Part shown: one piece after another, positions 2,211 to 60,413 of the stretch
Position numbering within the stretch: the first letter of the stretch is position 1
Layout: each line of letters begins with the position of its first letter
Translations under genes and position numbers: made by a program
Source of the DNA: Rickettsiales bacterium
GTDB taxonomy: Bacteria > Pseudomonadota > Alphaproteobacteria > Rs-D84
DNA length: 64,000 nucleotides
Direction: 5' to 3'
NCBI GenBank assembly: GCA_031283185.1
Contig: JAITCH010000011.1
Span: forward strand, 69,171 to 133,170
Notes under the pieces: generated by a model
Databases searched by the model: none
The model's input: the letters and a program-made list of their open reading frames with translations, nothing else
Told to the model about the DNA's origin: nothing

Positions 2211-3026
2211 ATGGAACATCTAATTAGAACTTTCGGTAGAATACACGGCAAAAAACTATCCAAACATCAGCAAAATCTGATTGATAGCCTTTTGCCAAAT
2301 TTAATTCCCCGCCAAGGGTGGCGGGGTGGCGGCGCAGCCGACGGGGTGGTTCGAATCCTGGAAATCGGTTTCGGCGCGGGCGAGCATATAATCCACCTGC
2401 TCCAAAATCCGAACTTTCATATAACCGGCGCGGACCCCTTTATTAATGGCGTCGCATCCCTATTGTCTAAATTAATAAAAAATTCTCCTCCTGTGGAGGA
2501 GTCCCCGCGAAGCGGGGGAGGTGGGTCAAACCTTAATATCAAAACGCAGACCCACCCCGGCACGGCAGAGCCGTGCCACCCCTCCACCGGAGGGGAATTA
2601 TTAGATCGTCTCGCAATCCACCCAGGCGATGTCAGAGAACTTCTAATCAAAAACCCCGACATAAAATTTGACCTGATTTATATCCTACACCCCGACCCCT
2701 GGCCAAAAGCAAAGCACGAAAAACGCCGCCTGCTCCAATCCGAATTCCTTAATGTATTAGATGAGCATCTAAATGTCGGCGGTTTGATTATATTCGGAAC
2801 AGACCATACAGATTACTTTAACTGGGCAGAATCTCAAATATTAACTTCCGCATTTATAATGTTGAAACACGATTCGTTTTTTCCGCCCGCATCAGGGCTA
2901 AATACCCGCTATAAAGTAAAAAATAAATTCGGCAGTGAACGCCCGCTTTACGCAGTCCTTGCCCGCCGAACGGAAGATTTTCCCAGTCCAGACCGCTTGG
3001 CCAAACTTGATCTAACGCTTGCATAA
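2211..3026 (+). CDS. trmB: tRNA (guanine46-N7)-methyltransferase carrying an in-frame ~40-aa insertion encoded by a palindromic repeat element
   Basis: SAM-binding ILEIGFGAGEH and PDPWPKAKHEKRR motifs of TrmB. The likely start is MEHLIRTFGRIHGKK at 2211. Residues KNSPPVEESPRSGGGGSNLNIKTQTHPGTAEPCHPSTGGEL are encoded by repeat copy A1. Confidence 0.8.
   Translation: MEHLIRTFGRIHGKKLSKHQQNLIDSLLPNLIPRQGWRGGGAADGVVRILEIGFGAGEHIIHLLQNPNFHITGADPFINGVASLLSKLIKNSPPVEESPRSGGGGSNLNIKTQTHPGTAEPCHPSTGGELLDRLAIHPGDVRELLIKNPDIKFDLIYILHPDPWPKAKHEKRRLLQSEFLNVLDEHLNVGGLIIFGTDHTDYFNWAESQILTSAFIMLKHDSFFPPASGLNTRYKVKNKFGSERPLYAVLARRTEDFPSPDRLAKLDLTLA
2481..2599 (+). mobile_element. RPE-like nested palindromic element, family A copy 1, inserted in-frame in trmB
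   Basis: Termini aattctcctcc-N4-ggaggag and cccctcc-N4-ggaggggaatt with internal GC hairpins. Homologous copies lie at 7922, 14105, 26149, 33925 and 55634. Confidence 0.75.
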
Positions 3027-4659: not shown

Positions 4660-4662
4660 AAA

Positions 4663-4687
4663 ATTCCCCTCCGTTGGAGGGGAATTT
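4663..4687. terminator. Perfect inverted repeat aattcccctcc-gttg-gaggggaatt followed by a T-run; bidirectional terminator-like hairpin between rarA and the PAP2 gene. Same core as the family A termini.
   Basis: 11-bp perfect stem, 4-nt loop, flanked by AAAA and TTTTT. Confidence 0.5.
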
Positions 4688-6238: not shown

Positions 6239-6261
6239 AATTTTACCTTTCGCTGTTAAGT

Positions 6262-6318
6262 CCCCTTCGCGGGCGAAGGGGTGGACGCGAAGCGGACGGG
6301 GTAGTGGTAATTCCGTCC
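6262..6318. repeat. GC-rich hairpin repeat, family D (gtccccttcgc-ggcgaaggggtgga...gacggggtagtgg); second copy at 60290-60345
   Basis: Near-identical ~50-nt palindromic sequence at two loci. Confidence 0.5.
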
Positions 6319-7921: not shown

Positions 7922-8049
7922 TAATTCTCCTCCATTGGAGGAGTCCGGGCAAAGCCCGGGAGATGGTTTAGCCACATATCACCGCACTGCTCGCCTTAAT
8001 TTGGTTAAACCACCCCGCCCTTCGGGCACCCCTCCACCGGAGGGGAACT
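7922..8049. mobile_element. RPE-like palindromic element, family A copy 2, in the yajC-secD intergenic space (within the operon transcript; opposite orientation to the genes)
   Basis: aattctcctccattggaggag ... cccctccaccggaggggaa termini; internal hairpins tccgggcaaagcccggga and ggtttagccacatatc...gttaaacc. Confidence 0.7.
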
Positions 8050-8374: not shown

Positions 8375-8622
8375 AGCCAGTCAAGCACCCTTTTCCCGCC
8401 CCCGTTGCCGGGGGCATCCCGACCCTCATCCGAACATATTACAAAATTTTCTATGAAAATTTTGTCATTCCTTTGAGGTCGGGAATCTCAAATTGTAAAA
8501 TAATTATAGCGGGTGGGGGTCTCCTGACCCCCACCCGAACATTTTATCAACTTAACTCTTGCGCTTGCCTTAATCTGATAAAACTTTCGGGGCGGGGTCA
8601 GGAGACCCCGCCCCGCATTTAT
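8375..8622. repeat. Composite block of palindromic repeats: a gtcattcc...ggaatgac-type hairpin, a 30-nt motif shared with 53315, and a ~110-bp MITE-like unit with inverted termini gcgggtgggggtctcctgacccccacccg / cggggcggggtcaggagaccccgccccg
   Basis: Inverted and direct repeats read directly; caaaattttctatgaaaattttgtcattcc is repeated at 53313-53342. Confidence 0.55.
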
Positions 8623-11653: not shown

Positions 11654-11850
11654 CCACCAAACCTATTAATATCGTGCAAAAAAACAATAATAAATAAACT
11701 CAAAACCCGTTAGGGGAATCGCAACGCCGCGATAGGTCGTCCAATACCAAGGAAACCCGACCTGCGGTGGACTGGATGTCCATAATGTGTCGGGTTTCCG
11801 AAGTGTAGTGGGCGAAAATATCGCGGCGGGATGAAAAATTCCCCTTACGG
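11654..11850 (-). repeat. Family B ~160-bp structured intergenic element, copy in reverse orientation, with a variant core hairpin ggaaacccgac/gtcgggtttcc
   Basis: Reverse complement of the conserved flanks tttttcatcccgccgcg...ggtattgg...ttttttgcacgatat. Core stem sequence differs from other copies but stays paired. Confidence 0.65.
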
Positions 11851-11861
11851 GTTTTGTCCGC

Positions 11862-14104: not shown

Positions 14105-14233
14105 AATTCCCCTCCCCGGGAGGGGTGCCCGAAGGGTGGGGTGGGCAATGAGCATAGTCAAAATGCAGAGCCTGTGATTAATGGTAGACCCACCTCGGCG
14201 GCTACGCCGCCACTCCTCCATTGGAGGAGAATT
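14105..14233. mobile_element. RPE-like palindromic element, family A copy 3, inserted between sufT and sufE (inside the operon)
   Basis: aattcccctccccgggaggggtgcccgaagggtggggtgggc ... ctcctccattggaggagaatt. Confidence 0.7.
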
Positions 14234-14913: not shown

Positions 14914-16509
14914 ATGTTTGAGGTAGGCAGCGATGCGATTTTATCAATTAAAAGCGGAATGAAAAAAAATGATTTCCGCGTGGATTTCGCGCGCATAGTT
15001 TTACTTGTCCTATTCTTTATATTCTCAATCCGTATCGTGCAACTTGGTTTAGAATCGCCAAATGCAAAACGGCGCAGTGTGGGGAATGCCGCTTGGCAGA
15101 CGCTTAGGGCGGATATAGTTGACAGGAATGGCGAATTATTGTCCGGAACTGCGCCTGGATTTTTCATCAAAATCTATCCTGGGCGCATAAAGGATTTGGC
15201 CGCAACGAAAGAGGTTTTAGAAAAAATTTACCCCGGGTTTGACGCGTCATTAGTGGAATCGAAAAAGACCGCGCTTTATCTTAATTATATCCCTCTGGGC
15301 CCGACAGATCCGGCGGTTTTGGCGGCGCGTGAAATTCATCAAAACTGGTTGGATTTGGAAGAGCGGCGCATCCGGCAATATGCGAAAAAGAGAATCTCCG
15401 CGCATATATTGGGCTTTGTCGGCAAGGACGGGGCGGGGTTGGAGGGCGCGGAAAAGTTCTTTGACGCACGGCTGAAATCTTCGGCGGAACCAGTCGCGCT
15501 TTCCATAGATTCGCGGATTCAATCATTGCTTTATCAAGAATTGTCGGATGCTAAAAATAAATATCATGCGAATTTTGCCGCCGGAATTCTAATGGATTCT
15601 ACAACCGGTGAAATTATCGCCGCCGCGCAGGTTCCAGACTTTGATCCGAATGACGCAGGATCGTCCCGCGCAGCCGACAGACAATTTATTCCGATGCGGA
15701 GCGTGTTTGAGATTGGAAGTATTTTCAAGATTTTTAATACCTTGCTCGCGCTTAAAACCGACCCGAATGCAAAAAAGAAATACGATGTGTCAAAGCCCGT
15801 GCAGATTGGCGCGGCAACCATTCACGATAAAAGTTCCCATAGCAAAACCAACTTTATGAATGTAGAAGATATTATGGTGCATTCTTCTAATATAGGTTCG
15901 GCGCGCGTGGCGTTGGCGCAGCCCGCAGGCGTGCAGGCGGAGTTTTTTAGAGAACTCGGACTTTATACGCCGCTGAATGTGGATGGCTTGGGTCGGACGG
16001 CAGTCTGGCCGGAAAGGAAAAATCCTCAGCCGATAGAGGTGGCAAATATGGCGTTCGGCCACGGCATTTCTGTATCAATGATGAATCTAATCGCGGCGGT
16101 AAATGGCGTGGCGAACGGAGGGGTTTTTGTGCAGCCTAGACTTACCAAGGCTATGGCAGGCGAAGGGATTGAAGGTCGGCGCGTGGTATCGGCGGACGCT
16201 TCTAAAACTTTGCGCCGAATGATGCTGCGGGTGTCAGAGGAAACCACAGGCAAGTTAGCGCGAGTCGGCGGGATTGATATAGCTTCAAAAACTGCGACTG
16301 CGGAAAAATTGGTCGGCGGGCGATATTCGGACACAAAGAATCTGAATAGTTTTGTTGCTGTGTTTCCCGTGGAATATCCGCGATATATTTTATTGATTAC
16401 GATTGACGAGCCGCAAGCGATAGATGGCGGCGGGCGGACATCTGCGTTTAATGCGGTGCCGGTTGCTGGGCGTGTTTTAGATGTCGCCGTCCCCTTGTTG
16501 ATGAAATGA
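14914..16509 (+). CDS. ftsI: Peptidoglycan D,D-transpeptidase FtsI (PBP3)
   Basis: SxxK (SIFK), SSN (HSSNIG) and KT(A)T motifs; PBP dimerisation domain; 531 aa. Confidence 0.8.
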   Translation: MFEVGSDAILSIKSGMKKNDFRVDFARIVLLVLFFIFSIRIVQLGLESPNAKRRSVGNAAWQTLRADIVDRNGELLSGTAPGFFIKIYPGRIKDLAATKEVLEKIYPGFDASLVESKKTALYLNYIPLGPTDPAVLAAREIHQNWLDLEERRIRQYAKKRISAHILGFVGKDGAGLEGAEKFFDARLKSSAEPVALSIDSRIQSLLYQELSDAKNKYHANFAAGILMDSTTGEIIAAAQVPDFDPNDAGSSRAADRQFIPMRSVFEIGSIFKIFNTLLALKTDPNAKKKYDVSKPVQIGAATIHDKSSHSKTNFMNVEDIMVHSSNIGSARVALAQPAGVQAEFFRELGLYTPLNVDGLGRTAVWPERKNPQPIEVANMAFGHGISVSMMNLIAAVNGVANGGVFVQPRLTKAMAGEGIEGRRVVSADASKTLRRMMLRVSEETTGKLARVGGIDIASKTATAEKLVGGRYSDTKNLNSFVAVFPVEYPRYILLITIDEPQAIDGGGRTSAFNAVPVAGRVLDVAVPLLMK

Positions 16510-16664
16510 CAAAAAACATAACCTCGGTTTTTCGTTTGTTGTCTATAACGGCTACTAACTTCGGAACGGCAGGGAAACTTATGGGCGGATAGCCCACCGC
16601 GCCCTGCCGTTCCTGGTTATTATCCGTTCTATCCTAACAAACGCGACCTCGTTAATGTTTTTTG
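16507..16664 (+). repeat. Family B structured intergenic element starting on the ftsI stop codon; core stem ggaacggcaggg/ccctgccgttcc
   Basis: tgacaaaaaacataa...ttcggaacggcagggaaacttatgggcggatagcccaccgcgccctgccgttcc...gttctatcctaacaaacgcg...ttttttg. Confidence 0.7.
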
Positions 16665-16723
16665 AGTTTATTTATTATTGTTTTTTGCACGATATTAAAA
16701 TACCCCGCCCGTGCGGGGGATTT

Positions 16724-19204
16724 TTACTGGCGGGAGAGGTGGTCGCAGGTATGGTATTTTGCCTCACCATCAAGATTCGGATACTCCGCGCCGTCCACAC
16801 TATATTTCTCAAACAGCCATTTCACCCTTTCCACAGCGCGGATAATAATCGCCGGATCGGTATAAATATGATTCTTATTCGTCTTTAAATCCAATATCCG
16901 CATCTCGCGGCATTTCGTTTTTCCAAACTCCGTAAATCCGCCGCTTTCTAAAATATAAGCCGTTATCGGAACCTGCGGAGAATTGCCTTCCGTCATTGAT
17001 TTCGCAGATGGAGCGCGCCCGGTTTTTATATCCATAACCACGCCGTCCCAAATCCTGTCAGCCCTTGCCGTAATGCGCCGCCTTGCAATAGTCGCCGCGC
17101 CGGATATTTCAGATTTCGCTCCCGCGCTTTCCTTAATCGTTTCCTCTATTAATGGCAAGGATTCCGCAAATCTCTTTTTCCAAAAATAAAAAGTCGCTGA
17201 TTCCATCGGCGCGAGCGCGGCAGCGAGCATATCAAAATCCGCCGGATTTCCATTCTCTATCAATGAATGCAACAAGATCCCGTAATCGCGGTTATCCGCC
17301 CCAGTCCGAATTGCTTCCATCGGGCGAAGGCGCAAAATATGCTTTGCATAAAACTCAAACGGATTATGCACAAATGTATCCAATGCCGTTGCAGATACTG
17401 GGTCAAATGTCGCAGGCGGCCGCGGCGCAGAAATTAATTCAGGCGCAAAATCCGGCAGGCGAAGTCCAGCATTTCGTAATTGAACGCCCGAAGTTTCAGC
17501 AAATACTTCCGCCCTTGTCAGAAAACGCGATTTGATTGCGGACGCGCCGCCAGTCCGTTTCGATCGCGTCCAAAAGACTTCCGCATTACAAGACAGATTA
17601 ATAAAGTCCATCGCCATAAGTCCCGTCTTGCGTTCCGCCGCTGGCAATCCGATTGCATCCGCAACCTTGCCCGGCAGCCAAGGGTGGCTAAATCCGCGCT
17701 TGGGAAAAAAGCCTTCGTTAAGGCCGCATATAACCACGACATCGGTCGGAACCATTCGCGCTTCTATTGTTCCCAGCACGCGCACGCGAGACAAAGGGTT
17801 TGATATGTTTCTGATTTTTATTCCGCCTGCAATAAATTCGAACAAAGCGGCAAAATCAAAAATGCTTCCATTCGCCAAAACACCCGCCCGCACAACCGCG
17901 CGCCATATATCCGCATTATCCGGCGTCATATTAGGACAAAGATATTCCACTGCCGCAAAAACAGAATTCGCAAAATTATTTTCAGGCGGAATAAATGCGA
18001 TGGATAATTTCGGATCCATTTCCAATATGTCCTGCATCTTGCCCGGGCGATCGCGGAACCGCTCTTTTATAAATTCATCCAGGTTCGGACGCGCATCAAC
18101 CAATCCGTTTTTAAGGATTGCGATGGCGGCGCGGACTTTATCATTCTCGCCAGTCCATAATCTCAGGATGGAAATTATCAGTTTTGATATAGGCAGCATA
18201 GTCGCCGGCTGACCGATGGACAGATCTGCCTCAATTCCAAGTTTCCCAAGTTCCAAACTAAGCCGATATGAAGCACTGACATCCGGCGAAATGGCCAGAA
18301 CGGACTTGCCTGATTTTGCCGCGTCATTAATTATGTTTGCCGCCTCGGTCATCTCGCTTGCCTCTGAATCGCATTCGGTAAGGGTAATTTTGCGCGCGGA
18401 CGCCGGTTCCAAATCGGGCTGGAAAATCAGATTCATAAAGTCGGCATTTGATTCGCCAGTATCTAAAATCCGAACGGACGAATGGGGTGTTTCAGCAGCG
18501 GCGAGCAACTTAGCCTCGGCATTATAAGGGTGCAAATCGGTCAAATTTCCCGGCATTTTCGCAATTTTGCCGGGAAGAAGCACAAATCCGTTAGAAAGGG
18601 AGGCAATTTTGACCAATAAATCGCGTGTCGCGGGAATACTGCCAGTCGAGCCACAGGCAAAAACACGAAAAAAAGCCGGGTTTTGCACTTCGGATAGCCA
18701 AGAACGAATGTCCCGGACGCGTTTTCTTGCATCCGTGTCTTTTAGTTCTGCAACTATGTCAAACAGGTCTGCTTTTTGAGAAAAATGATGTGCGAAATCA
18801 CCCGAAATAAGGTTATGAAAGTCGGGTCGGGGCATTTCTTCGGTGTCCAAATAGTCAATTATATGGATCAGGTCGTTTGTTATGCTGATGGCAAGGCTGA
18901 GATTGCAGTTAAGAGAGCGTTGAATCCTCCTGGCGGCAACGAATACCCGGTCAGCCTGGTTTTCGGCGTCCAAATCGTCTGATTCTTCCACCCCAGTTCC
19001 AAGCGGCACGAGTTTTGGAAGCAGAACTGCGCCACCTGTTTTTTCTACCAGCATTTCTTCAATGGCGATCGCGCTGCGGCGAGATGGAACGAAGATCAAA
19101 TCGCGCGAATAATCGTTATCAAACGGACGACCCATCAACTGCCAAAGACCATCTAAGATCTTTGCAGGATTGGTGCAGCAGAAAAAACCATTTTGATATG
19201 TCAT
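16724..19204 (-). CDS. addB: AddB-type double-strand-break repair nuclease (PD-(D/E)XK family); no addA adjacent
   Basis: 826 aa; C-terminal RecB-like nuclease motif VMDIKTGRAP and a terminal Cys cluster (YHTCDHLS); degenerate N-terminal helicase-like region typical of alphaproteobacterial AddB. Confidence 0.6.
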   Translation of the reverse strand: MTYQNGFFCCTNPAKILDGLWQLMGRPFDNDYSRDLIFVPSRRSAIAIEEMLVEKTGGAVLLPKLVPLGTGVEESDDLDAENQADRVFVAARRIQRSLNCNLSLAISITNDLIHIIDYLDTEEMPRPDFHNLISGDFAHHFSQKADLFDIVAELKDTDARKRVRDIRSWLSEVQNPAFFRVFACGSTGSIPATRDLLVKIASLSNGFVLLPGKIAKMPGNLTDLHPYNAEAKLLAAAETPHSSVRILDTGESNADFMNLIFQPDLEPASARKITLTECDSEASEMTEAANIINDAAKSGKSVLAISPDVSASYRLSLELGKLGIEADLSIGQPATMLPISKLIISILRLWTGENDKVRAAIAILKNGLVDARPNLDEFIKERFRDRPGKMQDILEMDPKLSIAFIPPENNFANSVFAAVEYLCPNMTPDNADIWRAVVRAGVLANGSIFDFAALFEFIAGGIKIRNISNPLSRVRVLGTIEARMVPTDVVVICGLNEGFFPKRGFSHPWLPGKVADAIGLPAAERKTGLMAMDFINLSCNAEVFWTRSKRTGGASAIKSRFLTRAEVFAETSGVQLRNAGLRLPDFAPELISAPRPPATFDPVSATALDTFVHNPFEFYAKHILRLRPMEAIRTGADNRDYGILLHSLIENGNPADFDMLAAALAPMESATFYFWKKRFAESLPLIEETIKESAGAKSEISGAATIARRRITARADRIWDGVVMDIKTGRAPSAKSMTEGNSPQVPITAYILESGGFTEFGKTKCREMRILDLKTNKNHIYTDPAIIIRAVERVKWLFEKYSVDGAEYPNLDGEAKYHTCDHLSRQ

Positions 19205-22398: not shown

Positions 22399-22658
22399 CC
22401 AAAAAACATAAGGTGCATTTTTGAGATATTTATTGGATGGCCTATCAAGCCGTTGCGATGTCGCTGGATTTTTTGAGATTATTATTATAATTAATATCGT
22501 GCAAAAAACATTAACGAGGTCGCGTTTGTTAGGATAGAACGGATAATAACCAGGAACGGCAGGGCGCGATGGGCTATCCGCCCATAAGTTTCCCTGCCGT
22601 TCCGAAGTTAGTAGCCGTTATAGACAACAAACGAAAAACCGAGGTTATGTTTTTTGGC
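22399..22658. repeat. Two family B elements in tandem: a core-less flank-only copy followed by a full inverted copy
   Basis: aaaaaacataaggtgcattttt...gttgcgatgtcgctggatttttt, then the reverse complement of the 16507-16664 element. Confidence 0.65.
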
Positions 22659-24339
22659 ATTTAGGCAATAAAGAATTAATAGCTGGGCGCAAGTTGGATG
22701 CGTTGAATAAATAACTCCCGCTGACCAACTCATCCGCCCCGGCGCGCCAGCATAACTGCGCCGTCTCTTCATTTATCCCGCCATCCATTATTATCTGAAA
22801 TTTCAATCTGCCCTTGGCGCGGACTTTACAAAGCCTTCGCACCTTATCCAAAACCTCTATCATAAACTGCTGCCCGCCGATTCCCGGCACCACCGACATC
22901 ACAATAATTCTATCAAGGTGTTTTATTATCGGCGCAATCGTATCAATTTCATCTTCCGGGTTTAGAGCAATGCCGCATTTGACCCCCGCCTGCTTTATAT
23001 GGGCAAGGTTCTGGGCAAGGTTTCGAGACCCGGTGATGAGGACAATTGAATCCGCCCCCGCCCGGATGAATTTCGGAATTTCAGGCGCAGGATCGCCCGC
23101 CATTAAATGCGCCGAAAATTTCAATGCGGAATCACGGGTTATATTTGCGGCATCCTTTGCCGAACCTGTTTTTTGCGGCGTCCATTTTCCATCCATAAAG
23201 TCATAATGGATTTCGCGCACACCGGCTTCCTCGAATTGGCGGAGAAGACTTCGGGTCATTCTACCAAAAGAAAGCGAGCTGGGCTGGATGGGACATTTCG
23301 GACTGGCCAAGCGATATATAATTCTTCTTAAAAACATAACGATGCGCGAACGGGATGGTTGCTGCGAAGTGCTGCGGCAAGCGGCGGCGATGGCGGTATC
23401 CGCTGCGGCGGCGATGGCGGTGCCATCCAAAGTTTCGGATATGATTTTGGACGCGACTTTGACATTGCTGCCGCCGCCGAAGAGAATGATTTTTTTAGGA
23501 ATTTCACCTGGAAATTTAGCCGCCAATTCGTCCGAAATTTTCCCGGCCAAAATCTTGAAAAAGCCGGAGATTTCGTCCTTTATATCTGCGGCATTTACAG
23601 ACCCGATTGTATCAAATTGGTCTTCCAATTTAAGGGGGGAAACGGCGGCCTGGATTTTCAATTTTTCCGCATCTAAAAAACTGATGTCAAACCTGTCCGC
23701 GATCTGTTTGGTCAAGTCCATTTGTCCGATGCCCAGTTCATCCATATGGACTATGCCGGCGTCATTTCCGACCGCAATGCGGGTTGCGGATCCGCCGAGA
23801 TGAATGAGTAATGCTTCGCCTGAAAATTTATACATAACCTGCATCATATCTATAAAGCCGACTGGTTCCAGATAAGATGCCTCCGCCGTTCGGGCGAGGC
23901 ATTCGGTTTCTTGGCGCGGGCAAAGGATGGCGAAAAAATCGCCCCTAAGATCTGCTGTTCTGATGCCGACGGGCGAGTCTACATTTTGTCCATCCGCATC
24001 CCAGCGAATAGGGACAAGATGAATGGTTGAGAGTTCCGGGTTTTGGAGTTCTGGTAATGCCGCGATCATTTTGCGGACATCCGATTCCGTTATTTTCTTG
24101 GGGTATGGAAAGGCGAGGCTGTTAGACACTATGCCCGAAGTTTGTCCGCCGAAATATCCCGCGATAAAGGCGCGTTTGAATCGGCTGCGGGTTTCGGCCT
24201 CCAATTCGTCCAAGACTGCGTTTAATGCGTCCCCGGGATTGGCTGAAATATCTTTTGTTTTGATGATTATTTTATCGTTAAAGGATGCGGCTGCCTTGAC
24301 CCGGTTTCTTCCGAAATATATGACGATTGCATCGCTCAT
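22645..24339 (-). CDS. Single 564-aa reading frame: truncated FtsA-like actin-family domain (residues 1 to ~335) fused without a stop to a complete ribulose-phosphate 3-epimerase
   Basis: FtsA blocks LLIHLGGSATRIAVGNDAGIVHMDELGIGQMDLTKQIA and KKIILFGGGSNVKVASKII. The first phosphate loop is degenerate (VIYFGRNR) and the FtsA C-terminus is missing. After an Ala-rich linker the Rpe blocks follow: IHYDFMDG, HLMAG, MSVVPGIGGQ, IIMDGGIN, AGADELVSGS. Confidence 0.6.
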   Translation of the reverse strand: MSDAIVIYFGRNRVKAAASFNDKIIIKTKDISANPGDALNAVLDELEAETRSRFKRAFIAGYFGGQTSGIVSNSLAFPYPKKITESDVRKMIAALPELQNPELSTIHLVPIRWDADGQNVDSPVGIRTADLRGDFFAILCPRQETECLARTAEASYLEPVGFIDMMQVMYKFSGEALLIHLGGSATRIAVGNDAGIVHMDELGIGQMDLTKQIADRFDISFLDAEKLKIQAAVSPLKLEDQFDTIGSVNAADIKDEISGFFKILAGKISDELAAKFPGEIPKKIILFGGGSNVKVASKIISETLDGTAIAAAADTAIAAACRSTSQQPSRSRIVMFLRRIIYRLASPKCPIQPSSLSFGRMTRSLLRQFEEAGVREIHYDFMDGKWTPQKTGSAKDAANITRDSALKFSAHLMAGDPAPEIPKFIRAGADSIVLITGSRNLAQNLAHIKQAGVKCGIALNPEDEIDTIAPIIKHLDRIIVMSVVPGIGGQQFMIEVLDKVRRLCKVRAKGRLKFQIIMDGGINEETAQLCWRAGADELVSGSYLFNASNLRPAINSLLPKCQKT

Positions 24340-25093: not shown

Positions 25094-25150
25094 ATGAGTC
25101 TAACCACCCCGGCGGCTTTGCCGCCACCTCGCCACCATTGGCGGGGAATT
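25094..25150. repeat. GC-rich hairpin repeat, family C (accaccccggcggctttgccgccacc...ttggcggggaatt); second copy at 33311-33360
   Basis: Near-identical 50-nt palindromic sequence at two loci. Confidence 0.5.
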
Positions 25151-26148: not shown

Positions 26149-26277
26149 AATTCCCCTCCGATGGAGGGGTGCCCGAAGGGCGGGGTGGTTTAACCACATA
26201 TTACCACAATACTTGCCAAAATGTGGCTAAACCACCTCCCCCCACTTCGTGGGGGACTCCTCCACAGGAGGAGAATT
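26149..26277. mobile_element. RPE-like palindromic element, family A copy 4
   Basis: aattcccctccgatggaggggtgcccgaagggcggggtgg...gggggactcctccacaggaggagaatt. Confidence 0.7.
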
Positions 26278-26716: not shown

Positions 26717-26783
26717 GAAAAAAGATATTTACAATTTGAGATTCCCGCCTTCGCGGGAATGACGATGAGGTAGAGGGAAATTT

Positions 26784-29657: not shown

Positions 29658-30372
29658 GATATTGAAATCACTTGCAAAGGCGGAAAGAATGGCCGGATCC
29701 AAAGATGCGGCGTTGGAAACATACGGATTATCCAAAGTCTTCAAGGATTCCAGCCGTCCACTACCCATATTAAAGGGCGGCGACCTGCGCGTGAACAAGG
29801 GCGAAATAGTCGCGCTTGTTGGACCATCGGGCTGCGGCAAATCAACTTTTCTGCAATGCGCGGGACTTCTTGATAAAGCAAGCGGCGGAAACATATTTAT
29901 TGGCGGCGTTCCTGCGGCAAGCCTTGGTGATAACGAACGGACAAAACTCCGCCTTCTCAAAATCGGATTTATATATCAGAAGTATAATTTGCTGGGGGAT
30001 TTTTCCGCGCTGGAAAATATAATGATGCCGATGCTGGTAGCCGGAGTGCGCCGCGTAGAGGCGGAATTTCGGGCAAAAAAATTAATTCGCGCAGTGGGAT
30101 TAGGCGCGCGGGAAAATCATAGACCAGCGCAATTATCCGGCGGCGAACAGCAGAGAGTTGCATTCGCGCGCGCTTTGGCAAATAACCCGGATATTATTAT
30201 GGCGGACGAGCCGACAGGGAATTTGGATCCTTCCAATGCTGGCGCAGTGTTTGATTTGGTGCTGGATTTGGTGAAGAAGACGGGGCTGGCGATGTTGATT
30301 GTCACCCACGATTCTGACATAGCCGCCCGCGCCGACCGCATAGTATCCATCAAAGACGGCATCATCGGTTAA
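29650..30372 (+). CDS. lolD: Lipoprotein-releasing system ATP-binding protein LolD
   Basis: Walker A GPSGCGKST, ABC signature LSGGEQQRVAFARAL, Walker B IIMADEPTGNLD. Confidence 0.85.
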   Translation: MSEILKSLAKAERMAGSKDAALETYGLSKVFKDSSRPLPILKGGDLRVNKGEIVALVGPSGCGKSTFLQCAGLLDKASGGNIFIGGVPAASLGDNERTKLRLLKIGFIYQKYNLLGDFSALENIMMPMLVAGVRRVEAEFRAKKLIRAVGLGARENHRPAQLSGGEQQRVAFARALANNPDIIMADEPTGNLDPSNAGAVFDLVLDLVKKTGLAMLIVTHDSDIAARADRIVSIKDGIIG

Positions 30373-30465
30373 TGCCAAAAAATCCTATCGTTGTATTTCA
30401 TCCTGCCGGGCAAAATCGCTTCTCCGTCATCAAATGCCGACACCTTATGTATATAAAATACACCG

Positions 30466-30541
30466 CGGGTCGGGTTTCCTTGGTATTGGACGGTCTATCA
30501 AGCCGTTGCGATGCCGCTGGATTTTTTGCACGATATTATTG
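30466..30541 (+). repeat. Family B element, 3' half only
   Basis: gtcgggtttccttggtattggacggtctatcaagccgttgcgatgccgctggattttttgcacgatattattg. Confidence 0.55.
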
Positions 30542-33229: not shown

Positions 33230-33310
33230 AGTATTTCCTTTTTCTTTTTTGTCTTAAAAATCTACTATAAAAGGCTGGGCATTTCAAGTTATTTATTCGG
33301 TAATAAGACG

Positions 33311-33360
33311 AACCACCCCGGCGGCTTTGCCGCCACCCCGCCACCCTTGGCGGGGAATTT
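33311..33360. repeat. Family C GC-rich hairpin repeat, copy 2
   Basis: gaaccaccccggcggctttgccgccaccccgccacccttggcggggaattt. Confidence 0.5.
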
Positions 33361-33587: not shown

Positions 33588-33926
33588 ATGGCGGTATTTC
33601 GCCGTAGTTTTAGCAACAGGGCAGATTTTATCCGCTTGAAAGAAAGCGGAAAATTTGCTCGCACTTCATTTTTTATTATGAATTTTGCGCCTGCCCGGGA
33701 GATTCCCGCGCGGTATGGTTTGATTGCGGTTAAAAAATCGTTTGGCACGGCCATTAGTCGTAATCGCGCCCGGCGTCTGATGCGGGAATGGTTAAGGTTG
33801 TCTGCGGGGCTGCTTGACCCAAATATGGATTACGCGTTGGTATTGATGCCAGAGATTTTAAGGGCGAAAAAGGAAGATGGCCTTAGGGAATTAGAAAGGG
33901 CGGTTAAAAAGTTGAGAGTAAAATAA
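33588..33926 (+). CDS. rnpA: Ribonuclease P protein component
   Basis: Conserved RNR motif (ISRNRARRLMRE); canonical rpmH-rnpA linkage. Confidence 0.8.
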   Translation: MAVFRRSFSNRADFIRLKESGKFARTSFFIMNFAPAREIPARYGLIAVKKSFGTAISRNRARRLMREWLRLSAGLLDPNMDYALVLMPEILRAKKEDGLRELERAVKKLRVK

Positions 33927-34039
33927 TTCCCCTCCGGTGGAGGGGTGGTCGCGGAGCGACCAGGGTGGGTCAAGCGTGTGGTATTAAGGGTAGACCCACC
34001 TCCCCCGCTTCGCGGGGACTCCTCCCAAGGAGGAGAATT
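33925..34039. mobile_element. RPE-like palindromic element, family A copy 5, abutting the rnpA stop
   Basis: aattcccctccggtggaggggtggtcgcggagcgacc...gactcctcccaaggaggagaatt. Confidence 0.7.
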
Positions 34040-39088: not shown

Positions 39089-39763
39089 ATGAGCGGATGG
39101 AGAGAGGGGCATAGAAAACGGATTTTTGATAAATTTGATAAGGGATTGGATATGTCGCCTTATGAAATTTTAGAGATAATTTTATGTTATTGTATTCCGC
39201 GGATGGATGTGCGGGGAACGGCTTCGCAATTGGTGAAAAAATATGGCAGTCCGTTGGCTGCTTGTATTCAATCTGAAAAATCATTGTTGGAAAACGAGGG
39301 AATTGGAATTTCTTCTGCGCGGTTGTTGCGGGCAATAGGCGGGCTTTATGAAGATAGTTTTGCGATTAATATGAAGGCAGAGCCGATATATCATAATATC
39401 CAGATTCTTTATGATTATTGTAGGATTAAGATGGCGGCGTTGGAAGAAGAGCGGGTTTTAGTGCTTTATTTGGACGCGAATATGAAGTTGATAAAGTCGG
39501 AAGAGCATACCAAAGGATCGGCGGCGGAATCTGCGTTGTATAAGGATAAAATTGCGAAGAACGCATTGGTTATGGGCGCAAGGAATGTGGTGGTTGTGCA
39601 TAATCATCCTGCTGGCGGGGATTTTTCGATTGATGATTATAATGTTTCGTGCGCGCTTAGGGACGCGCTGGGAACGATTGATGTGAAGTTGTTTGATCAT
39701 CTGCTGGTGAGCGATGGCAGAGTTCTATCTGCGAAAGAAAAATGGCCCGAATTGGGCGTATGA
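39089..39763 (+). CDS. radC: RadC-family JAB-domain protein (UPF0758)
   Basis: JAMM motif VHNHPAGG; N-terminal HhH-like region. Confidence 0.75.
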   Translation: MSGWREGHRKRIFDKFDKGLDMSPYEILEIILCYCIPRMDVRGTASQLVKKYGSPLAACIQSEKSLLENEGIGISSARLLRAIGGLYEDSFAINMKAEPIYHNIQILYDYCRIKMAALEEERVLVLYLDANMKLIKSEEHTKGSAAESALYKDKIAKNALVMGARNVVVVHNHPAGGDFSIDDYNVSCALRDALGTIDVKLFDHLLVSDGRVLSAKEKWPELGV

Positions 39764-39928
39764 CAAAAAACATAAGGTGCATTTTTCGTTTGCGGTCTAT
39801 ATCGCCCAGAATCAAGGAAAATGGGGGCACACTCATTGGCATACAGCCAACTTCACCCCCATTTTCCTTGATTCTGGGCGTTCTATCCTAGCAAACGCGA
39901 TGCACCTAATGTTTTTTGCACGATATTA
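39761..39928 (+). repeat. Family B element starting on the radC stop codon (core ggaaaatgggggcac...cccccattttcc); followed at 39929-39953 by a terminator-like aattcccctcc hairpin shared with argS
   Basis: tgacaaaaaacataaggtgcatttttcgtttgcgg...ttttttgcacgatattaaaattcccctccgatggagtggaatt. Confidence 0.65.
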
Positions 39929-39955
39929 AAATTCCCCTCCGATGGAGTGGAATTT

Positions 39956-47802: not shown

Positions 47803-47803
47803 C

Positions 47804-48094
47804 TTACCCTATTAAATTCTTTGGAATCTTCATACTTATCATTCCCATTTTCGCCGCAATCATTTTTCCCAGTTGCGGTTCCGACTTTGATACATTCGCC
47901 AATATATAATGCATAATTATAAACGGCATCACAAACCAAAGCGGATTTATCCCATCCCCAAATACCACAAAATGCGCCATAAAAGCCCCTATGAAAATAA
48001 GGAAAAAGACAAAAAAATTAACCATAGCAATGCCATACGGCACACCCAAAATCCTTATCGGATTCGTAATCGCTTTATATATCGGTTCTCTCAT
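47804..48094 (-). CDS. virB3: Type IV secretion system protein VirB3/TrbD
   Basis: 96 aa with two TM segments (GIAMVNFFVFFLIFIGAFMAHFVVF...), directly upstream of virB4 with a 1-nt gap. Confidence 0.6.
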   Translation of the reverse strand: MREPIYKAITNPIRILGVPYGIAMVNFFVFFLIFIGAFMAHFVVFGDGINPLWFVMPFIIMHYILANVSKSEPQLGKMIAAKMGMISMKIPKNLIG

Positions 48095-48389
48095 CTCTCC
48101 CTCTCATCCCAATTCTAACATTTTCAACAATTTTTAACAAGAGATTACCCCATATTCTCAATAATTGTTAAATCAACATTTTATCCACAATAATTAACAT
48201 ATCTGTTAATAATGTGTTTTATTGGCTTAAATCAATGATTTATTATGTTAATATATCTGTTTATAAGTTTTATTAACTGATTTAACACCCTAAACAACAA
48301 AAACAATAATACTTATTTGTTATATGAAAAATCCCCATTGCAAGCAAAGGGGATAATGACACAGGCATTTTGAGTTATGATAATCAAGA

Positions 48390-48524: not shown

Positions 48525-48622
48525 CATAAATTCCTTTGATAAATTTTCCGTATATTTATAATATAATTATCTTGAAAAATCAAGCAATAAGGATAAACTT
48601 CTAAAATAGGGGTTATAAAACT

Positions 48623-51930: not shown

Positions 51931-51951
51931 AGAATTTATTAGAGGGGGTGT

Positions 51952-53133: not shown

Positions 53134-53135
53134 AT

Positions 53136-53398: not shown

Positions 53399-55633
53399 AT
53401 GAACTTACTAATAGTCGAATCACCGGCAAAATCTAAAACAATCGAAAAATACTTGGGCGCGGACTTCAAGGTAATGGCATCTATCGGCCATGTCCGCGAC
53501 CTACTCCCAGAAGACGGCTCCGTTGACCCAAATAATAACTTTAAGATGATCTGGCAAATTATGCCCGATAAAGAAAAACAAATAAAGGCCATATCCGACG
53601 CGCTTAAAAAATCCGATACGCTCTATCTCGCAACCGACCAAGACCGCGAAGGAGAGGCCATCGCTTGGCATCTCTATGATATATTGTCCGAACGCGGATT
53701 ACTTGTCGGCAAAAAAGTATATCGCATAACATTTAATGAAATTACCAAACGCGCAGTTCAAGCCGCTTTGGAATCCCCGCGCGAAATAGACCAAAGTTTG
53801 GTTAATGCCTACCTTGGCCGCCGCGCTTTGGATTATCTTATGGGATTTAACCTGTCCCCCGTTCTATGGCGCAAGGTTCCGGGCGCGAAATCCGCAGGCC
53901 GCGTTCAATCCGCCGCGCTCGCATTATTGGTCGCCCGCGAGCGTGAAATTGAAGAATTTAACCCGGTTGAATACTGGTCAGTTGACGCGGATGTCAAGGC
54001 CAAGGGCGGAAAATTTAATGCCAAACTTTCCGAATCAAATGGCAAAAAAATAGATAAACTATCCATTTCTACCAAGGATCAAGTTGATGAAATCCTATCC
54101 GCGCTTGTCCCGAACCTGCCGGGCGTGGTTAAAAAAATAGAGAAAAAGCAAACCTCGCGCCGCCCCGCCGCGCCGTTCACCACTTCCACCCTGCAACAAG
54201 AGGCATCTCGCAAACTTCATTTTGGCGCGCAGCGCACTATGCGTGCCGCTCAAAAACTTTATGAAAAGGGATTTATAACTTATATGCGAACGGACGCAGT
54301 CAACCTTTCCGAAGACGCACTTTCCGCTATCCGTTCTTACATTTCTTCCAGTTTTGGCGCGCCATATTTACCCGCCGCGGCCATTCGCTATGCAAACAAG
54401 TCTAAAAACGCGCAGGAAGCGCATGAAGCCGTCCGCCCTACTGATTGCGCCAAGACATCCGTAATCGGCCTTGTGGAGCATACCGATGAAGAGAAATTAT
54501 ATGAATTGATTTGGAAACGCACCTTGGCCTGCCAAATGACAGACGCAAAATTTGATGCGGTCGCCGTGGACATTATCCCGGCCAAAGTATCCGCAGTATT
54601 CCGCGCAACCGGCAGCACCCAAACCTTTGACGGATTCCTTAAATTATATCAGGAAGGCGAAGACGATAAGGAAGACGAGAACGAGGTTAAAATCCCGCCG
54701 CTTACCGAAGGCGAAGAAATAGTATTTACGGCATTCAATTCCGAACAGCATTTCACTATGCCGCCGCCGCGCTTTACCGAAGCGACCCTGGTTAAAAAAC
54801 TGGAAGAACTTGGCATAGGACGGCCTTCAACTTATGCGACCATTTTGGGTGTCATAGTTGACCGCGAATATGCAAAATTGGAAAAGCAGAGATTTTTCGC
54901 AACAGAAAAAGGTTGGATAGTCGCCGCATTCCTCGGTAAGTATTTCGAGCAATTTGTCGCGTCAGATTTCACCGCAGGCGTAGAAGACAACCTTGACCAG
55001 ATTGCAGAATCCAAAGCCGAATGGACAAAAGTTTTGCGCTCTTTCTGGGATTTGCTCTCATCCAAAATCGCCGCGGCCAAGGAAGTATCAACAGCGGATG
55101 TTATGACTGAAATAAACAAAATCCTTAGCCCCCATTTATTCAAGGACGGCGGCGACATTTGCCCTGAATGCAAAAAGGGCAAGGTCGGATTACGGCTGGG
55201 CAAATTCGGCGCGTTCCTCGGATGCGGAAATTATCCCGACTGCAAATACATCAAAAACATTGGCGATAACGCCGCGCCCGCAGGCGGATCCGCAAACAAA
55301 GACTTGGGAGACGGAGTATTCTTCAAGGTCGGACGATACGGCCCCTATGTTGAGCAAGGCGACAAACGCGCATCGGCAAAAAACGAAACTTCGGAAACCA
55401 TAACTCTTGAAAAGGCACTTGAACTTTTATCAACCGGCGGACGGGCGGAGGCCGAAGAACTAGGCGATCATTCCGGCACCCCGATAAAATATCACGCGAC
55501 TGGAAAATTCGGCCCCTATATTTCTTGGGGCAAGGTCAACGCCTCGGTCAAAACCCGCCCAGAGTTAGAGGACGCAATCGAAATCATAGAAAAGAAAAAA
55601 CTCGCCCCTAAAAAGTTTTTTAAGAAGAAATAA
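53399..55633 (+). CDS. topA: DNA topoisomerase I
   Basis: TOPRIM N-terminus MNLLIVESPAKSKTIEKYLG, catalytic region, C-terminal C4 zinc ribbon CPECKKG...CGNYPDC; 744 aa. Confidence 0.9.
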   Translation: MNLLIVESPAKSKTIEKYLGADFKVMASIGHVRDLLPEDGSVDPNNNFKMIWQIMPDKEKQIKAISDALKKSDTLYLATDQDREGEAIAWHLYDILSERGLLVGKKVYRITFNEITKRAVQAALESPREIDQSLVNAYLGRRALDYLMGFNLSPVLWRKVPGAKSAGRVQSAALALLVAREREIEEFNPVEYWSVDADVKAKGGKFNAKLSESNGKKIDKLSISTKDQVDEILSALVPNLPGVVKKIEKKQTSRRPAAPFTTSTLQQEASRKLHFGAQRTMRAAQKLYEKGFITYMRTDAVNLSEDALSAIRSYISSSFGAPYLPAAAIRYANKSKNAQEAHEAVRPTDCAKTSVIGLVEHTDEEKLYELIWKRTLACQMTDAKFDAVAVDIIPAKVSAVFRATGSTQTFDGFLKLYQEGEDDKEDENEVKIPPLTEGEEIVFTAFNSEQHFTMPPPRFTEATLVKKLEELGIGRPSTYATILGVIVDREYAKLEKQRFFATEKGWIVAAFLGKYFEQFVASDFTAGVEDNLDQIAESKAEWTKVLRSFWDLLSSKIAAAKEVSTADVMTEINKILSPHLFKDGGDICPECKKGKVGLRLGKFGAFLGCGNYPDCKYIKNIGDNAAPAGGSANKDLGDGVFFKVGRYGPYVEQGDKRASAKNETSETITLEKALELLSTGGRAEAEELGDHSGTPIKYHATGKFGPYISWGKVNASVKTRPELEDAIEIIEKKKLAPKKFFKKK

Positions 55634-55762
55634 ATTCTCCTCCGATGGAGGAGTCCCGGCGTAGCCGGGGAGGTGGGTCTACCCTAAATCAAAGGCTCAA
55701 CATAGGGACTACGCTCATTGCCCACCCCGCCCTGCGGGCACCCCTCCCGGGGAGGGGAATTA
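55634..55762 (+). mobile_element. RPE-like palindromic element, family A copy 6, filling the whole topA-dnaG spacer
   Basis: aattctcctccgatggaggagtcccggcgtagccggggaggtgggtctaccc...cccctcccggggaggggaatt. Confidence 0.7.
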
Positions 55763-59269: not shown

Positions 59270-59270
59270 A

Positions 59271-60285: not shown

Positions 60286-60413
60286 TGCAATTAAGTCCCC
60301 TTCGCTGGCGAAGGGGTGGATGCCGAAGGCAGACGGGGTAGTGGTTAATAAAATTTTCCTGCCCCCAGAAATGGGGGCGGGATGTCCGGCAAAGCCGGAC
60401 AAGGTGGGGGACT

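What the first reader, a model, noticed from the sequence alone, without database searches (positions are those of the whole stretch)
2481..2599. RPE-like nested palindromic elements (family A, six full copies), one inserted in-frame inside trmB
Full copies at 2481, 7922, 14105, 26149, 33925 and 55634 share termini aattc[tc]cctcc-N4-ggagg[ag]g ... cccctcc-N4-ggaggggaatt around two or three internal GC hairpins. Solo terminal hairpins at 4663 and 39929 look like terminators. Copy 1 lies inside the TrmB reading frame between the SAM-binding motif and the PDPWPK motif. It adds about 40 residues (KNSPPVEESPRSGGGGSNLNIKTQTHPGTAEPCHPSTGGEL) without breaking the frame. Copies also extend the 5' ends of the sufE and dnaG ORFs in the six-frame track. 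Every full copy lies in transcribed DNA between co-directional genes or inside an ORF. They occur in both orientations, which points to a DNA-level mobile element and not an RNA gene. This is the behaviour described for Rickettsia palindromic elements. If the lineage is outside Rickettsia this would be an independent or novel RPE-type family.
Basis: partly seen in the sequence, partly recalled or inferred. Interest (0 to 1): 0.7.

Follow-up and report, generated by a model that had tools for sequence, protein, structure and literature searches.

The report
Mobile palindromic mini-element inside trmB
The repeat inside trmB is a real, gene-less miniature copy of a palindromic mobile element found across many bacterial phyla, whose full-size form carries a small Vsr-like (DUF559) DNA-cutting enzyme and can sit in frame inside genes without breaking them.

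Summary
Six 115-129-nt nested-palindromic copies are at the stated places. One lies in frame in trmB and adds a 40-residue loop that the model predicts to be disordered. Two syntenic sister genomes lack the trmB, yajC-secD and sufT-sufE insertions.

The interpretation needs revision. This is not a lineage-restricted RPE family. Each element is two inverted "arms": box CCACC(C/T)C, a hairpin of free sequence, then hairpin C(C/T)CCTCC-N3-GGAGG(G/A)G-AATT. Near-identical arms occur in at least 15 phyla, including cultured isolates and viral contigs. About 440-nt versions enclose a DUF559/Vsr-like endonuclease gene. One of these, in an Oscillospiraceae MAG, has the same X/Y arm asymmetry as the window copies. 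Whole cassettes sit in frame inside restriction-modification genes (HsdR, MTases, Type ISP), and 74% of close DUF559 homologues carry arm-encoded peptides.

My best reading is that family A is the non-autonomous derivative of a palindrome-flanked endonuclease cassette. Mobilisation by DUF559 is inferred, not shown. I found no description of this association in the searchable literature.

The parts
2481..2599 (+). Family A full copy c1 (X arm, centre, Y arm), in frame in trmB. Encodes residues 91-130: NSPPVEES...HPSTGGEL.
2303..2357 (+). Solo arm of the CCCCGCC/GGCGGGG subtype, also in frame in trmB (about residues 32-49, PRQGWRGGGAADGVV).
   Evidence: (I9, I10)
2211..3026 (+). trmB (tRNA m7G46 methyltransferase), 271 aa. 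All 48 columns that are invariant in the 22-sequence alignment are kept. NCBIfam scores fall below their cut-offs.
7923..8049 (+). Full copy c2 in the yajC-secD spacer (147 nt here, 9-12 nt in sister genomes).
14105..14233 (-). Full copy c3 between sufT and sufE. These genes overlap in sister genomes.
26149..26277 (-). Full copy c4 between two co-directional minus-strand ORFs.
33925..34039 (-). Full copy c5. It starts inside the rnpA stop codon, and the next gene's ATG is at 34055.
55633..55761 (+). Full copy c6 between topA (its stop overlaps the first base) and dnaG (ATG at 55772).
4662..4686 (.). Solo terminal hairpin AATT-CCCCTCC-GTT-GGAGGGG-AATT between convergent rarA and PAP2 genes. Terminator-like. 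Possibly a collapsed element.
39930..39954 (.). Solo terminal hairpin (one mismatch) between convergent radC and argS.
25096..25150 (+). Solo arm (inner box, hairpin, then CCTCGCC..GGCGGGGAATT).
33309..33359 (+). Solo arm, 91% identical to the arm at 25096.
6256..6312 (+). Variant arm (CCCCTTCG/CGAAGGGG terminal stem, GGGGTAGTGG box) in the secD-secF spacer.
   Evidence: (D16)
60291..60346 (+). Second copy of the variant arm (94% over 33 nt).
   Evidence: (D16)

Best explanation
The feature is one of six miniature, gene-less copies of a palindromic mobile element. Each copy consists of two inverted arms around a variable centre. An arm is a conserved box CCACC(C/T)C, a hairpin whose sequence is free but whose pairing is kept, a conserved terminal hairpin C(C/T)CCTCC-N3-GGAGG(G/A)G, and AATT. 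The arms belong to a family spread across bacterial phyla. Its longer form (about 440 nt) carries one small gene between the arms, a DUF559/Vsr-like PD-(D/E)XK endonuclease with an invariant E-x-D-x3-H...D motif. The arms are G+C-rich and open in several reading frames, so insertions into coding DNA can survive as extra loops. In this genome two such insertions sit in surface loops of TrmB. The others fill stop-to-Shine-Dalgarno spacers of operons. Shown here: the anatomy, the copy number, the absence of three insertions from sister genomes, the cross-phylum arm conservation, the physical association with DUF559, and in-frame residence of arms and whole cassettes in genes. Inferred, at roughly 45%: the DUF559 nuclease acts on the arm hairpins, in cis or in trans, and drives copying of both cassette and miniatures, in the way RAYT is hypothesised to mobilise REP/REPIN repeats or a homing endonuclease drives its own gene. 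The ends, the target site and the chemistry are unknown.
For: Window anatomy and significance.
Absence from relatives: 40 kb of syntenic sister loci hold no arms. The yajC-secD, sufT-sufE and trmB sites are empty there.
Almost all extend beyond the searched 21-mer to the full arm. Full two-arm elements score E down to 9e-16.
Structure under constraint: the 251 arms hold 135 distinct inner segments, and 121 of these fold as hairpins.
Cargo: the mid-size elements enclose PF04480 DUF559 at E=2e-30. The gene is present in 14 of 120 genome loci and 4 of 54 metagenome loci that were seeded only by the arm pattern.
Reverse test: 82 of 111 close DUF559 homologues carry arm-encoded peptides in their called ORFs.
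Shared asymmetry: L182 has a Y arm, a Shine-Dalgarno sequence and ATG, DUF559, then an X arm. This is the same X/Y asymmetry as family A.
Catalytic residues are invariant in 36 diverse members, and the closest solved structure is 3hrl. Vsr-like nucleases are established homing endonucleases (PMC3239194, PMC2677866).
In-frame cassettes lie in HsdR, MTases and Type_ISP_C. In-frame arms lie in HsdM, Era, an MFS transporter and a terminase.
Strain polymorphism next to a DUF559 gene.
No RAYT in 1.3 Mb of arm-bearing DNA.
Arms and one complete cassette occur on viral contigs.
Distant DUF559 genes in Azospirillum and Neisseria also abut multicopy palindromic repeats.
Against: No DUF559 gene lies in the 64-kb window. 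None from a Rickettsiales genome appeared among the top homologues. The rest of the MAG could not be searched.
No target-site duplication or exact element end could be defined.
The only polymorphism seen is explained by recombination between arms, not by transposition.
Arms also flank unrelated fragments (an integrase fragment and a Fic-like fragment). One DUF559 gene lies between outward-facing arms, so the geometry is not uniform.
The in-frame cases were found by a search that selected for spanning ORFs, so the frame bias is not quantified.
Nuclease activity on the arms is untested.
Confidence: 0.6

Rival explanations
1. The arms are an independent REP-like repeat family spread by some other, unidentified mechanism. 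DUF559 is a homing-type selfish gene that targets those repeats, or the genes that hold them, and is therefore found nested in them. On this view the nuclease does not move the miniatures.
For: DUF559 is found between inward-facing arms and also between outward-facing arms (L138). Many arms are solo or lie in tail-to-tail pairs without any gene. The window has many copies and no DUF559. Vsr-like nucleases are known homing enzymes (PMC3239194). The same position of Type_ISP_C is occupied in two organisms, which is homing-like behaviour.
Against: The cassette ORF uses the arms for its start region and its C-terminal tail, which indicates long co-evolution. The arms keep near-identical sequence across phyla together with a 58-77% identical DUF559. 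No other candidate enzyme recurs next to the arms.
Confidence: 0.25
2. This is a classical MITE: a deletion derivative of an insertion sequence, moved by that IS's transposase through its terminal inverted repeats.
For: The size, the inverted termini (AATTC(C/T)CCTCC...), the A/T-rich insertion sites and the multiple subfamilies all fit.
Against: No target-site duplication was recognisable. No transposase gene lies between arms in any of the 7 mid-size elements or elsewhere. The conserved part is a pair of local hairpins rather than a plain TIR.
Confidence: 0.05
3. These are REP/REPIN elements mobilised by a RAYT (an IS200/IS605-like tyrosine transposase).
For: The elements are hairpin units found single, head-to-head and tail-to-tail, and a single gene is flanked by inverted units. 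This is the REPtron geometry (PMC3733652).
Against: The arms have no GTAG tag. tblastn with the E. coli RAYT found nothing in 1.3 Mb of arm-bearing loci, whereas DUF559 was found in 34 loci.
Confidence: 0.03
4. This is a lineage-specific member of the Rickettsia palindromic element (RPE) families.
For: NCBI names the MAG as Rickettsiales. The element is a palindrome of about 120 nt, sits in frame in a housekeeping enzyme and forms a loop.
Against: The family is cross-phylum. It is G+C-rich, unlike the peptides and sequences listed for RPE-4 and RPE-6. Sister genomes lack it. The window separately holds classic CGTC-1-type hairpins of the RPE-6 kind.
Confidence: 0.03
5. These are host-selected structural signals (terminators, mRNA stabilisers or insulators) rather than mobile DNA.
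For: The solo hairpins sit between convergent genes and score as terminators. The outward-facing terminal hairpins are followed by T-runs on the antisense strand. Pairing is conserved while sequence is free.
Against: The elements are present inside ORFs. They are absent from orthologous spacers of sister genomes. Identical 40-mers occur in unrelated phyla and on viral contigs. The elements are linked to a nuclease gene.
Confidence: 0.04

Closest known systems
Rickettsia palindromic elements (RPE-1 to RPE-8)
   Same: Palindromic repeats of about 105-146 nt, many copies per genome, some inserted in frame in housekeeping genes and tolerated as extra peptide segments (PMC3184786 table; PMC3733652 background).
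   Different: The arms here are G+C-rich and conserved across phyla, and they are linked to a DUF559 gene. No sequence relation was found to the RPE-4 and RPE-6 peptides listed in PMC3733652. No partner enzyme is known for RPEs.
REP/REPIN elements with RAYT genes (REPtrons)
   Same: Short hairpin units occur single or as inverted pairs and are dispersed in tens of copies. One enzyme gene is flanked by the units in inverted orientation.
   Different: The flanked gene is a Vsr-like PD-(D/E)XK nuclease, not an HUH tyrosine transposase. The arms lack a GTAG tag. They are nearly identical across phyla, whereas REPs are species-specific. Units and whole cassettes are often translated.
CGTC-tagged REPs (Di Nocera et al. 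2013; includes RPE-4, RPE-6 and Neisseria dRS3)
   Same: In many arms the inner hairpin is preceded by CGTC and followed by CCA. In Chryseobacterium it has an 8-bp stem starting with A:T pairs and a 4-nt loop. This class is reported to lack a dedicated transposase and to occur inside genes.
   Different: This is a resemblance of form only. Many arms have CGCC or other tags and G+C stems. The conserved boxes and the second (terminal) hairpin are not part of the CGTC definition. The published consensus figures were not available to me.
EDxHD / Vsr-like homing endonucleases (I-Bth0305I; 'fractured genes')
   Same: Same nuclease superfamily and catalytic motif. These are selfish genes that reside inside conserved host genes and spread horizontally (PMC3239194, PMC2677866, PMC3424549).
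   Different: The cassette has no intron, no intein and no NUMOD DNA-binding domain. The gene is bounded by palindromic arms, is read through in frame with the host protein, and spawns gene-less miniatures at unrelated sites.
Neisseria REP2 repeats
   Same: The N. gonorrhoeae DUF559 gene (PDB 3hrl-like) is flanked by a 120-nt repeat with two internal stem-loops, present 22-26 times per chromosome. REP2 is described as 120-150 bp with two stem-loops, 23 copies in FA1090, and an unexplained origin (PMC3184786).
   Different: Identity with REP2 is inferred from size, copy number and structure. I had no REP2 sequence to compare. The repeats flank the gene as direct, not inverted, copies, and their sequence differs from the arms.

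Membership tests
Rickettsia palindromic elements (RPE) | Sequence similarity to one of the RPE-1 to RPE-8 consensus sequences | tested here: inconclusive
The peptides listed for RPE-6 (SFLRKQES..LDSRFRGND) and RPE-4 (VIPWLDHGI) in the PMC3733652 supplement are unlike those encoded here (NSPPVEES.., HPSTGGEL).
Rickettsia palindromic elements (RPE) | Palindromic repeat of about 100-150 nt, multicopy, with some copies in frame in ORFs | tested here: met
Rickettsia palindromic elements (RPE) | Restricted to the genus Rickettsia or close relatives | tested here: not met
   The arms occur in Bacteroidota, Firmicutes, Cyanobacteria, Planctomycetota, Chlorobi, Cloacimonadota and others. They are absent from two sister MAG loci.
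REP/REPIN with RAYT | Unpaired GTAG tag next to the hairpin | tested here: not met
   Arm alignment. There is no GTAG, and the boxes are CCACCCC.
REP/REPIN with RAYT | A RAYT (Y1 HUH) gene flanked by the repeats | tested here: not met
   No tblastn hit to the E. coli RAYT in 191 sequences totalling 1.3 Mb. The whole MAG was not searchable.
CGTC-tagged REPs | CGTC tag, 8-9-bp stem starting with A:T pairs, 4-5-nt loop, CCA tail | tested here: inconclusive
   64 of the 135 distinct inner segments start GTC after a C. The Chryseobacterium arms fit all four points, but the window's arms have CGCC or CCCC tags and G+C stems.
MITE | Terminal inverted repeats and no coding capacity | tested here: met
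MITE | Target-site duplication | tested here: not met
   The flanks of 26 full copies and two empty-site comparisons show none. AATT is palindromic, so it cannot be assigned to the element or the target.
MITE | A parent IS with a transposase and the same ends | tested here: not met
   The longer forms carry DUF559, not a transposase.
DUF559 / Vsr-like PD-(D/E)XK nucleases (cargo of the long form) | Match to PF04480 above the gathering score, with catalytic residues conserved | tested here: met
   105 bits against a cut-off of 20.6. PDB 3hrl at E=1.8e-15. E74, D76, H80 and D87 are invariant.
Homing endonuclease genes | Resides in a self-splicing intron or an intein, or is free-standing next to its target | tested here: not met
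   The cassette is about 440 nt, arms plus ORF, which leaves no room for an intron or intein. It is read through in frame.
Homing endonuclease genes | Recurrent occupation of one conserved site in a host gene across taxa | tested here: inconclusive
   Type_ISP_C is split at profile position about 182-186 in both L011 and L031. hsdS-DUF559 operons occur in two Betaproteobacteria. Other sites are diverse.
Homing endonuclease genes | Sequence-specific cleavage of the empty site | not testable with these tools
   This needs biochemistry.

The most novel reading that the evidence does not exclude
DUF559/Vsr-like endonucleases may be the partner enzymes of a whole class of palindromic repeat families that lack a transposase. 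Candidates are the arms described here, the Azospirillum 131-nt element, the Neisseria REP2-like repeat, and possibly the CGTC-type REPs and RPEs. Together they would form a new kind of mobile element: a hairpin-bounded nuclease cassette that moves between phyla (partly on phages), inserts in frame into genes, preferentially restriction-modification genes, and sheds gene-less miniatures that decorate proteins such as TrmB.
Probability: 0.35. Interest if true: 0.9.

Novelty: new variant of a known kind. Interest (0 to 1): 0.78.

Why it matters
In-frame palindromic insertions such as RPEs have been known since 2000. What moves them, and what moves other REP-like repeats that lack a RAYT, has remained open. 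[quoted passage not shown] PMC3184786 raises the same question for REP2. This window leads to a concrete and testable candidate: a small Vsr-like nuclease that is physically bounded by the repeats in many phyla. If the link is functional, three things follow. First, it would define a mobile element that uses a repair-type nuclease rather than a transposase. Second, it would explain a common class of mis-annotated proteins: 'hypothetical' proteins and apparent fusions carrying NSPPLEGW, FPSxGGV, TPPxEGN or HPSxGGEF peptides. This TrmB, which NCBI calls hypothetical, is one example. Third, the element's frequent residence inside restriction-modification genes would point to an interplay with host defence. 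Even if the nuclease turns out not to be the mobilising enzyme, the cross-phylum conservation of a 40-nt hairpin module still needs an explanation.

Tried and rejected
1. Searching with an N4 loop gave 0 matches. The loop is N3.
2. Rfam at gathering and at permissive thresholds gave only a tRNA and sub-threshold noise. This argues against membership of any described RNA family.
3. Literature searches by DNA strings and by arm-encoded peptides returned nothing relevant. None of the DUF559 papers I opened describes flanking repeats.
4. One script with an over-strict regular expression returned 0 arms and was replaced.
5. The plasmid collection holds only distant DUF559 genes (43% identity or less) and no cassette of this subfamily. 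Those distant hits did lead to the Azospirillum and Neisseria repeats.
6. A look-up of the window's own TrmB found no record, so I could not reach the rest of the MAG or its sample.
The distribution figures are therefore lower bounds.
8. I looked for a target-site duplication in 26 copies and at two empty sites and found none that was convincing.
9. RAYT was rejected as the partner enzyme.
10. A reading as an assembly artefact was rejected. The arms occur in cultured isolates and complete chromosomes: Chryseobacterium spp., Flavobacterium soli, Serratia microhaemolytica, Maribacter halichondriae and Sulfurirhabdus autotrophica.
Full report
1. THE OBSERVATION

The sequence at 2481-2599 reads AATTCTCCTCC-TGT-GGAGGAG, then a second hairpin, then GGTGGGTC...GACCCACC, then a third hairpin, then CCCCTCC-ACC-GGAGGGG-AATT. 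Five further copies lie at 7923-8049, 14105-14233, 26149-26277, 33925-34039 and 55633-55761.

The end motif AATTCYCCTCC-N3-GGAGGRG occurs 16 times in the window, against 0.01 expected from shuffles. A profile built from the six copies recovers each at E=6e-34 to 5e-26. Beyond these it finds only partial arms and two solo hairpins.

Every copy has one 'X' end (TCTCCTCC/GGAGGAG) and one 'Y' end (CCCCTCC/GGAGGGG). The copies fall into three centre subtypes: c1/c5, c2/c4 and c3/c6. As single-stranded DNA all six fold into the same five helices, with z-scores of -2.8 to -8.0. The second and fourth hairpins differ in sequence between copies but keep their pairing.

Rfam has nothing for them.

2. GENE CONTEXT

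The window comes from a MAG that NCBI names 'Rickettsiales bacterium'.

- Copy 1 lies in the TrmB reading frame (ATG 2211 to 3026) and encodes residues 91-130.
- The other five full copies fill spacers between co-directional genes: yajC-secD, sufT-sufE, rnpA and the next gene, topA-dnaG, and two unnamed ORFs.
- These copies typically start at or within the upstream stop codon and end 10-15 nt before the downstream ATG.
- The apparent 5' extensions of sufE and dnaG are therefore ORF-calling artefacts.
- The two solo hairpins sit between convergent genes. One of them scores as a terminator.

3. ARE THESE INSERTIONS?

The closest TrmB orthologues (59% identity, 224-229 aa) lack both inserts.

Two syntenic sister loci, 20 kb each with the same gene order, contain no arm at all. 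There yajC-secD is 9-12 nt (147 nt here), sufT and sufE overlap (144 nt apart here), and secD and secF overlap in one of the two loci, L192 (93 nt here, holding a variant arm).

TrmB keeps all 48 columns that are invariant in the alignment. An AlphaFold model (pLDDT 78.8, pTM 0.79) has the TrmB fold. Its best PDB matches are E. coli and B. subtilis TrmB. The 40-residue insert is modelled as a coil with pLDDT below 50.

NCBIfam TrmB models fall below their cut-offs, and NCBI lists the protein as hypothetical.

4. THE FAMILY IS NOT LINEAGE-SPECIFIC

Nearly all matches extend, beyond what the pattern required, to the full arm CCACCCCG-[hairpin]-CACCCCTCC-N3-GGAGGGGAAT.

Complete two-arm elements of 106-175 nt occur in Gammaproteobacteria, Clostridia, Cloacimonadota, Chlorobi, Planctomycetota and others. 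Carriers include cultured Chryseobacterium, Flavobacterium, Serratia, Maribacter and Advenella, so assembly artefacts are excluded.

Over all the DNA fetched up to that analysis there are 251 arms with 135 distinct inner segments. Of these segments, 121 fold as hairpins with unrelated stems. This means the pairing is constrained, not the sequence.

Arms occur singly, as inward pairs (the miniature form), as tail-to-tail pairs and in tandem.

5. THE CARGO

Seven inward pairs are 430-690 nt long. Five of them enclose one ORF that matches PF04480 DUF559 at E=2e-30.

DUF559 lies within 14 of 120 genome loci and 4 of 54 metagenome loci that were chosen only by the arm pattern. It does not occur in the window.

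The reverse test agrees. Of 111 close DUF559 homologues from diverse phyla (58-77% identical), 82 have arm-encoded peptides in their called ORFs. These peptides are NSPPLEGW..DGVV, FPSxGGV..GRGG, HPAL.GTPPxEGN and HPSxGGEF. The TrmB insert begins NSPPVEES and ends HPSTGGEL.

In L182, from an Oscillospiraceae MAG, the order is Y arm, Shine-Dalgarno sequence, ATG, DUF559, X arm, with the stop codon right after the terminal AAT. This is exactly the X/Y asymmetry of the window's copies. The X-arm scan found 54 loci, most of them by contig prefix from a few JGI metagenomes (Ga0099364 appears to be a termite-gut sample, judging from a MAG title). About 26 of these are full two-arm miniature copies, and most of those whose ends were inspected are X/Y.

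The nuclease family is closest to PDB 3hrl. It keeps E, D, H and D invariant in 36 diverse members. It belongs to the Vsr/DUF559 clade, which also contains the EDxHD homing endonuclease I-Bth0305I (PMC3424549, PMC3239194, PMC2677866).

No RAYT was found in 1.3 Mb of arm-bearing DNA.

6. IN-FRAME RESIDENCE IS GENERAL

Single uninterrupted ORFs contain the whole cassette inside host proteins:

- HsdR: HSDR_N, then DUF559, then SWI2/SNF2 and the C-terminal domains (L055).
- An Eco57I/MmeI-type methyltransferase (L031).
- An N6_N4 methyltransferase (L113).
- A Type ISP C-terminal domain (L011). It is split at the same profile position at which L031 carries arm pairs.

Arms alone lie in frame in HsdM, Era, an MFS transporter, a glycosidase-like protein and a phage terminase.

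In two Betaproteobacteria the cassette sits between hsdS and the rest of a type I operon.

This census selected for spanning ORFs, so the frame bias and the restriction-modification bias are impressions, not measurements. As an independent hint, DUF559 proteins are enriched together with R-M methylases among predicted inversion targets flanked by inverted repeats (PMC9881135).

7. DYNAMICS AND SPREAD

In one Clostridium population a 243-nt arm-bounded unit next to DUF559 is present 0, 1 or 3 times. The change is explained by recombination between arms.

Viral contigs carry 16 arms and one complete cassette.

More distant DUF559 genes show a similar pattern:

- Azospirillum has a 131-nt palindromic element, built from similar C-rich and G-rich boxes and hairpins, directly upstream of the gene. 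It is present at 38 or more places in that replicon and at 430 places in 43 replicons.
- The N. gonorrhoeae gene is flanked by a 120-nt repeat present 22-26 times per chromosome. By size, copy number and two stem-loops this is probably REP2 (PMC3184786). I did not verify this by sequence.

8. HOW IT MOST LIKELY WORKS

Shown: family A is the gene-less form of a hairpin-bounded DUF559 cassette. It entered this lineage after the split from its sisters and multiplied as three subtypes. Its arms are open in one to three frames per copy, so insertions into loops of proteins survive.

Inferred: the Vsr-like nuclease recognises or cuts the arm hairpins and drives copying. I rate this at about 45%.

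The main rival, at about 25%, is that the arms spread by other means and that DUF559 merely homes into them.

No target duplication or exact end could be defined.

9. COMPARISON WITH KNOWN SYSTEMS AND NOVELTY

The behaviour is RPE-like. In-frame REP insertions are already known in several phyla (PMC3733652). Membership in the RPE families is not supported.

The geometry is REPtron-like but with a different enzyme class. The inner hairpins of many arms have the form of CGTC-tagged REPs, a class reported to lack a dedicated transposase. This is a lead, not a test.

I found no paper describing DUF559-flanking repeats. I therefore rate the finding a new variant of a known kind.

Noticed in passing
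window 11700-11858, 16495-16664, 22502-22671, 30371-30528, 39758-39902, 51768-51932, 53132-53294, 59269-59437, 60110-60278, 61742-61905: A second, unrelated repeat family of about 165 nt has about ten copies in both orientations (one pair is 96% complementary over 170 nt). Most copies start right at the stop codon of a gene (AATGACAAAAAA...) and contain a conserved hairpin GGAAACCGGGGGCAC...GCCCCCGG. It matches no Rfam family at gathering score.
   Followed up: no
window 8464-8486, 26741-26763, 53331-53353: Three classic CGTC-1-type hairpins (GTCATTCCCGCGAAGGCGGGAAT). This is the kind that Di Nocera et al. equate with Rickettsia RPE-6 and Neisseria dRS3. The window therefore holds an RPE-6-like repeat that is distinct from family A.
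   Followed up: partly
window 8509-8616: A pair of very strong 12-bp hairpins (CGGGTGGGGGTCTCCTGACCCCCACCCG and CGGGGCGGGGTCAGGAGACCCCGCCCCG) in inverted arrangement around an A/T-rich centre, upstream of yajC. This looks like another palindromic element type, and both hairpins score as terminator-like.
   Followed up: no
proteins P0012, P0014, P0016, P0024, P0027, P0079, P0118 (alignment A1): More distant TrmB homologues carry different inserts (VGAHTCAP...YAPLQ, VGANNYSPLQ, VGAGLARP...TPPLQ) at the same two loops. These look like translations of GTAG-type REP palindromes. The TrmB loops seem to be recurrent landing sites for unrelated palindromic repeats.
   Followed up: no
L031 3935-5713 and 684-3539: In one uncultured bacterium a Type ISP gene pair carries several tail-to-tail arm pairs, a DUF559 cassette and a tandem duplication of a host segment of about 105 aa bounded by arms, all in one open frame.
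   Followed up: partly
L190 (N. gonorrhoeae NZ_CP119142.1 48962-50613) and L189 (Azospirillum brasilense NZ_CP032346.1): Distant DUF559 genes are bordered by multicopy repeats. In Neisseria this is a 120-nt direct repeat present 22-26 times per chromosome, probably REP2. In Azospirillum it is a 131-nt palindrome present 38 or more times per replicon. Both PLSDB 'plasmid' records for Neisseria are 2.17-Mb chromosomes.
   Followed up: partly
L209 58-502 (IMG/VR contig IMGVR_UViG_3300013123_000988): A complete arm-DUF559-arm cassette on a viral contig. Arms also lie in frame in a phage terminase large subunit (L133).
   Followed up: partly
L130, L136, L141, L149, L153, L157, L178, L180 (metagenome Ga0099364, apparently termite gut): Many X/Y miniature copies share identical flanks (TAGGGCAAAA-element-TAATTTACRA). 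There they are part of a larger repeated unit, or of one locus assembled many times.
   Followed up: no
window 46000-50000: G+C drops to 0.37-0.42 against about 0.47-0.49 elsewhere. This could be a foreign or unusual segment.
   Followed up: no
window 16697-16725: A terminator-like hairpin AAAATACCCCGCCCGTGCGGGGGATTTTT that resembles the solo terminal hairpins but has a CCCCGCC stem. It lies next to a copy of the 165-nt repeat.
   Followed up: no
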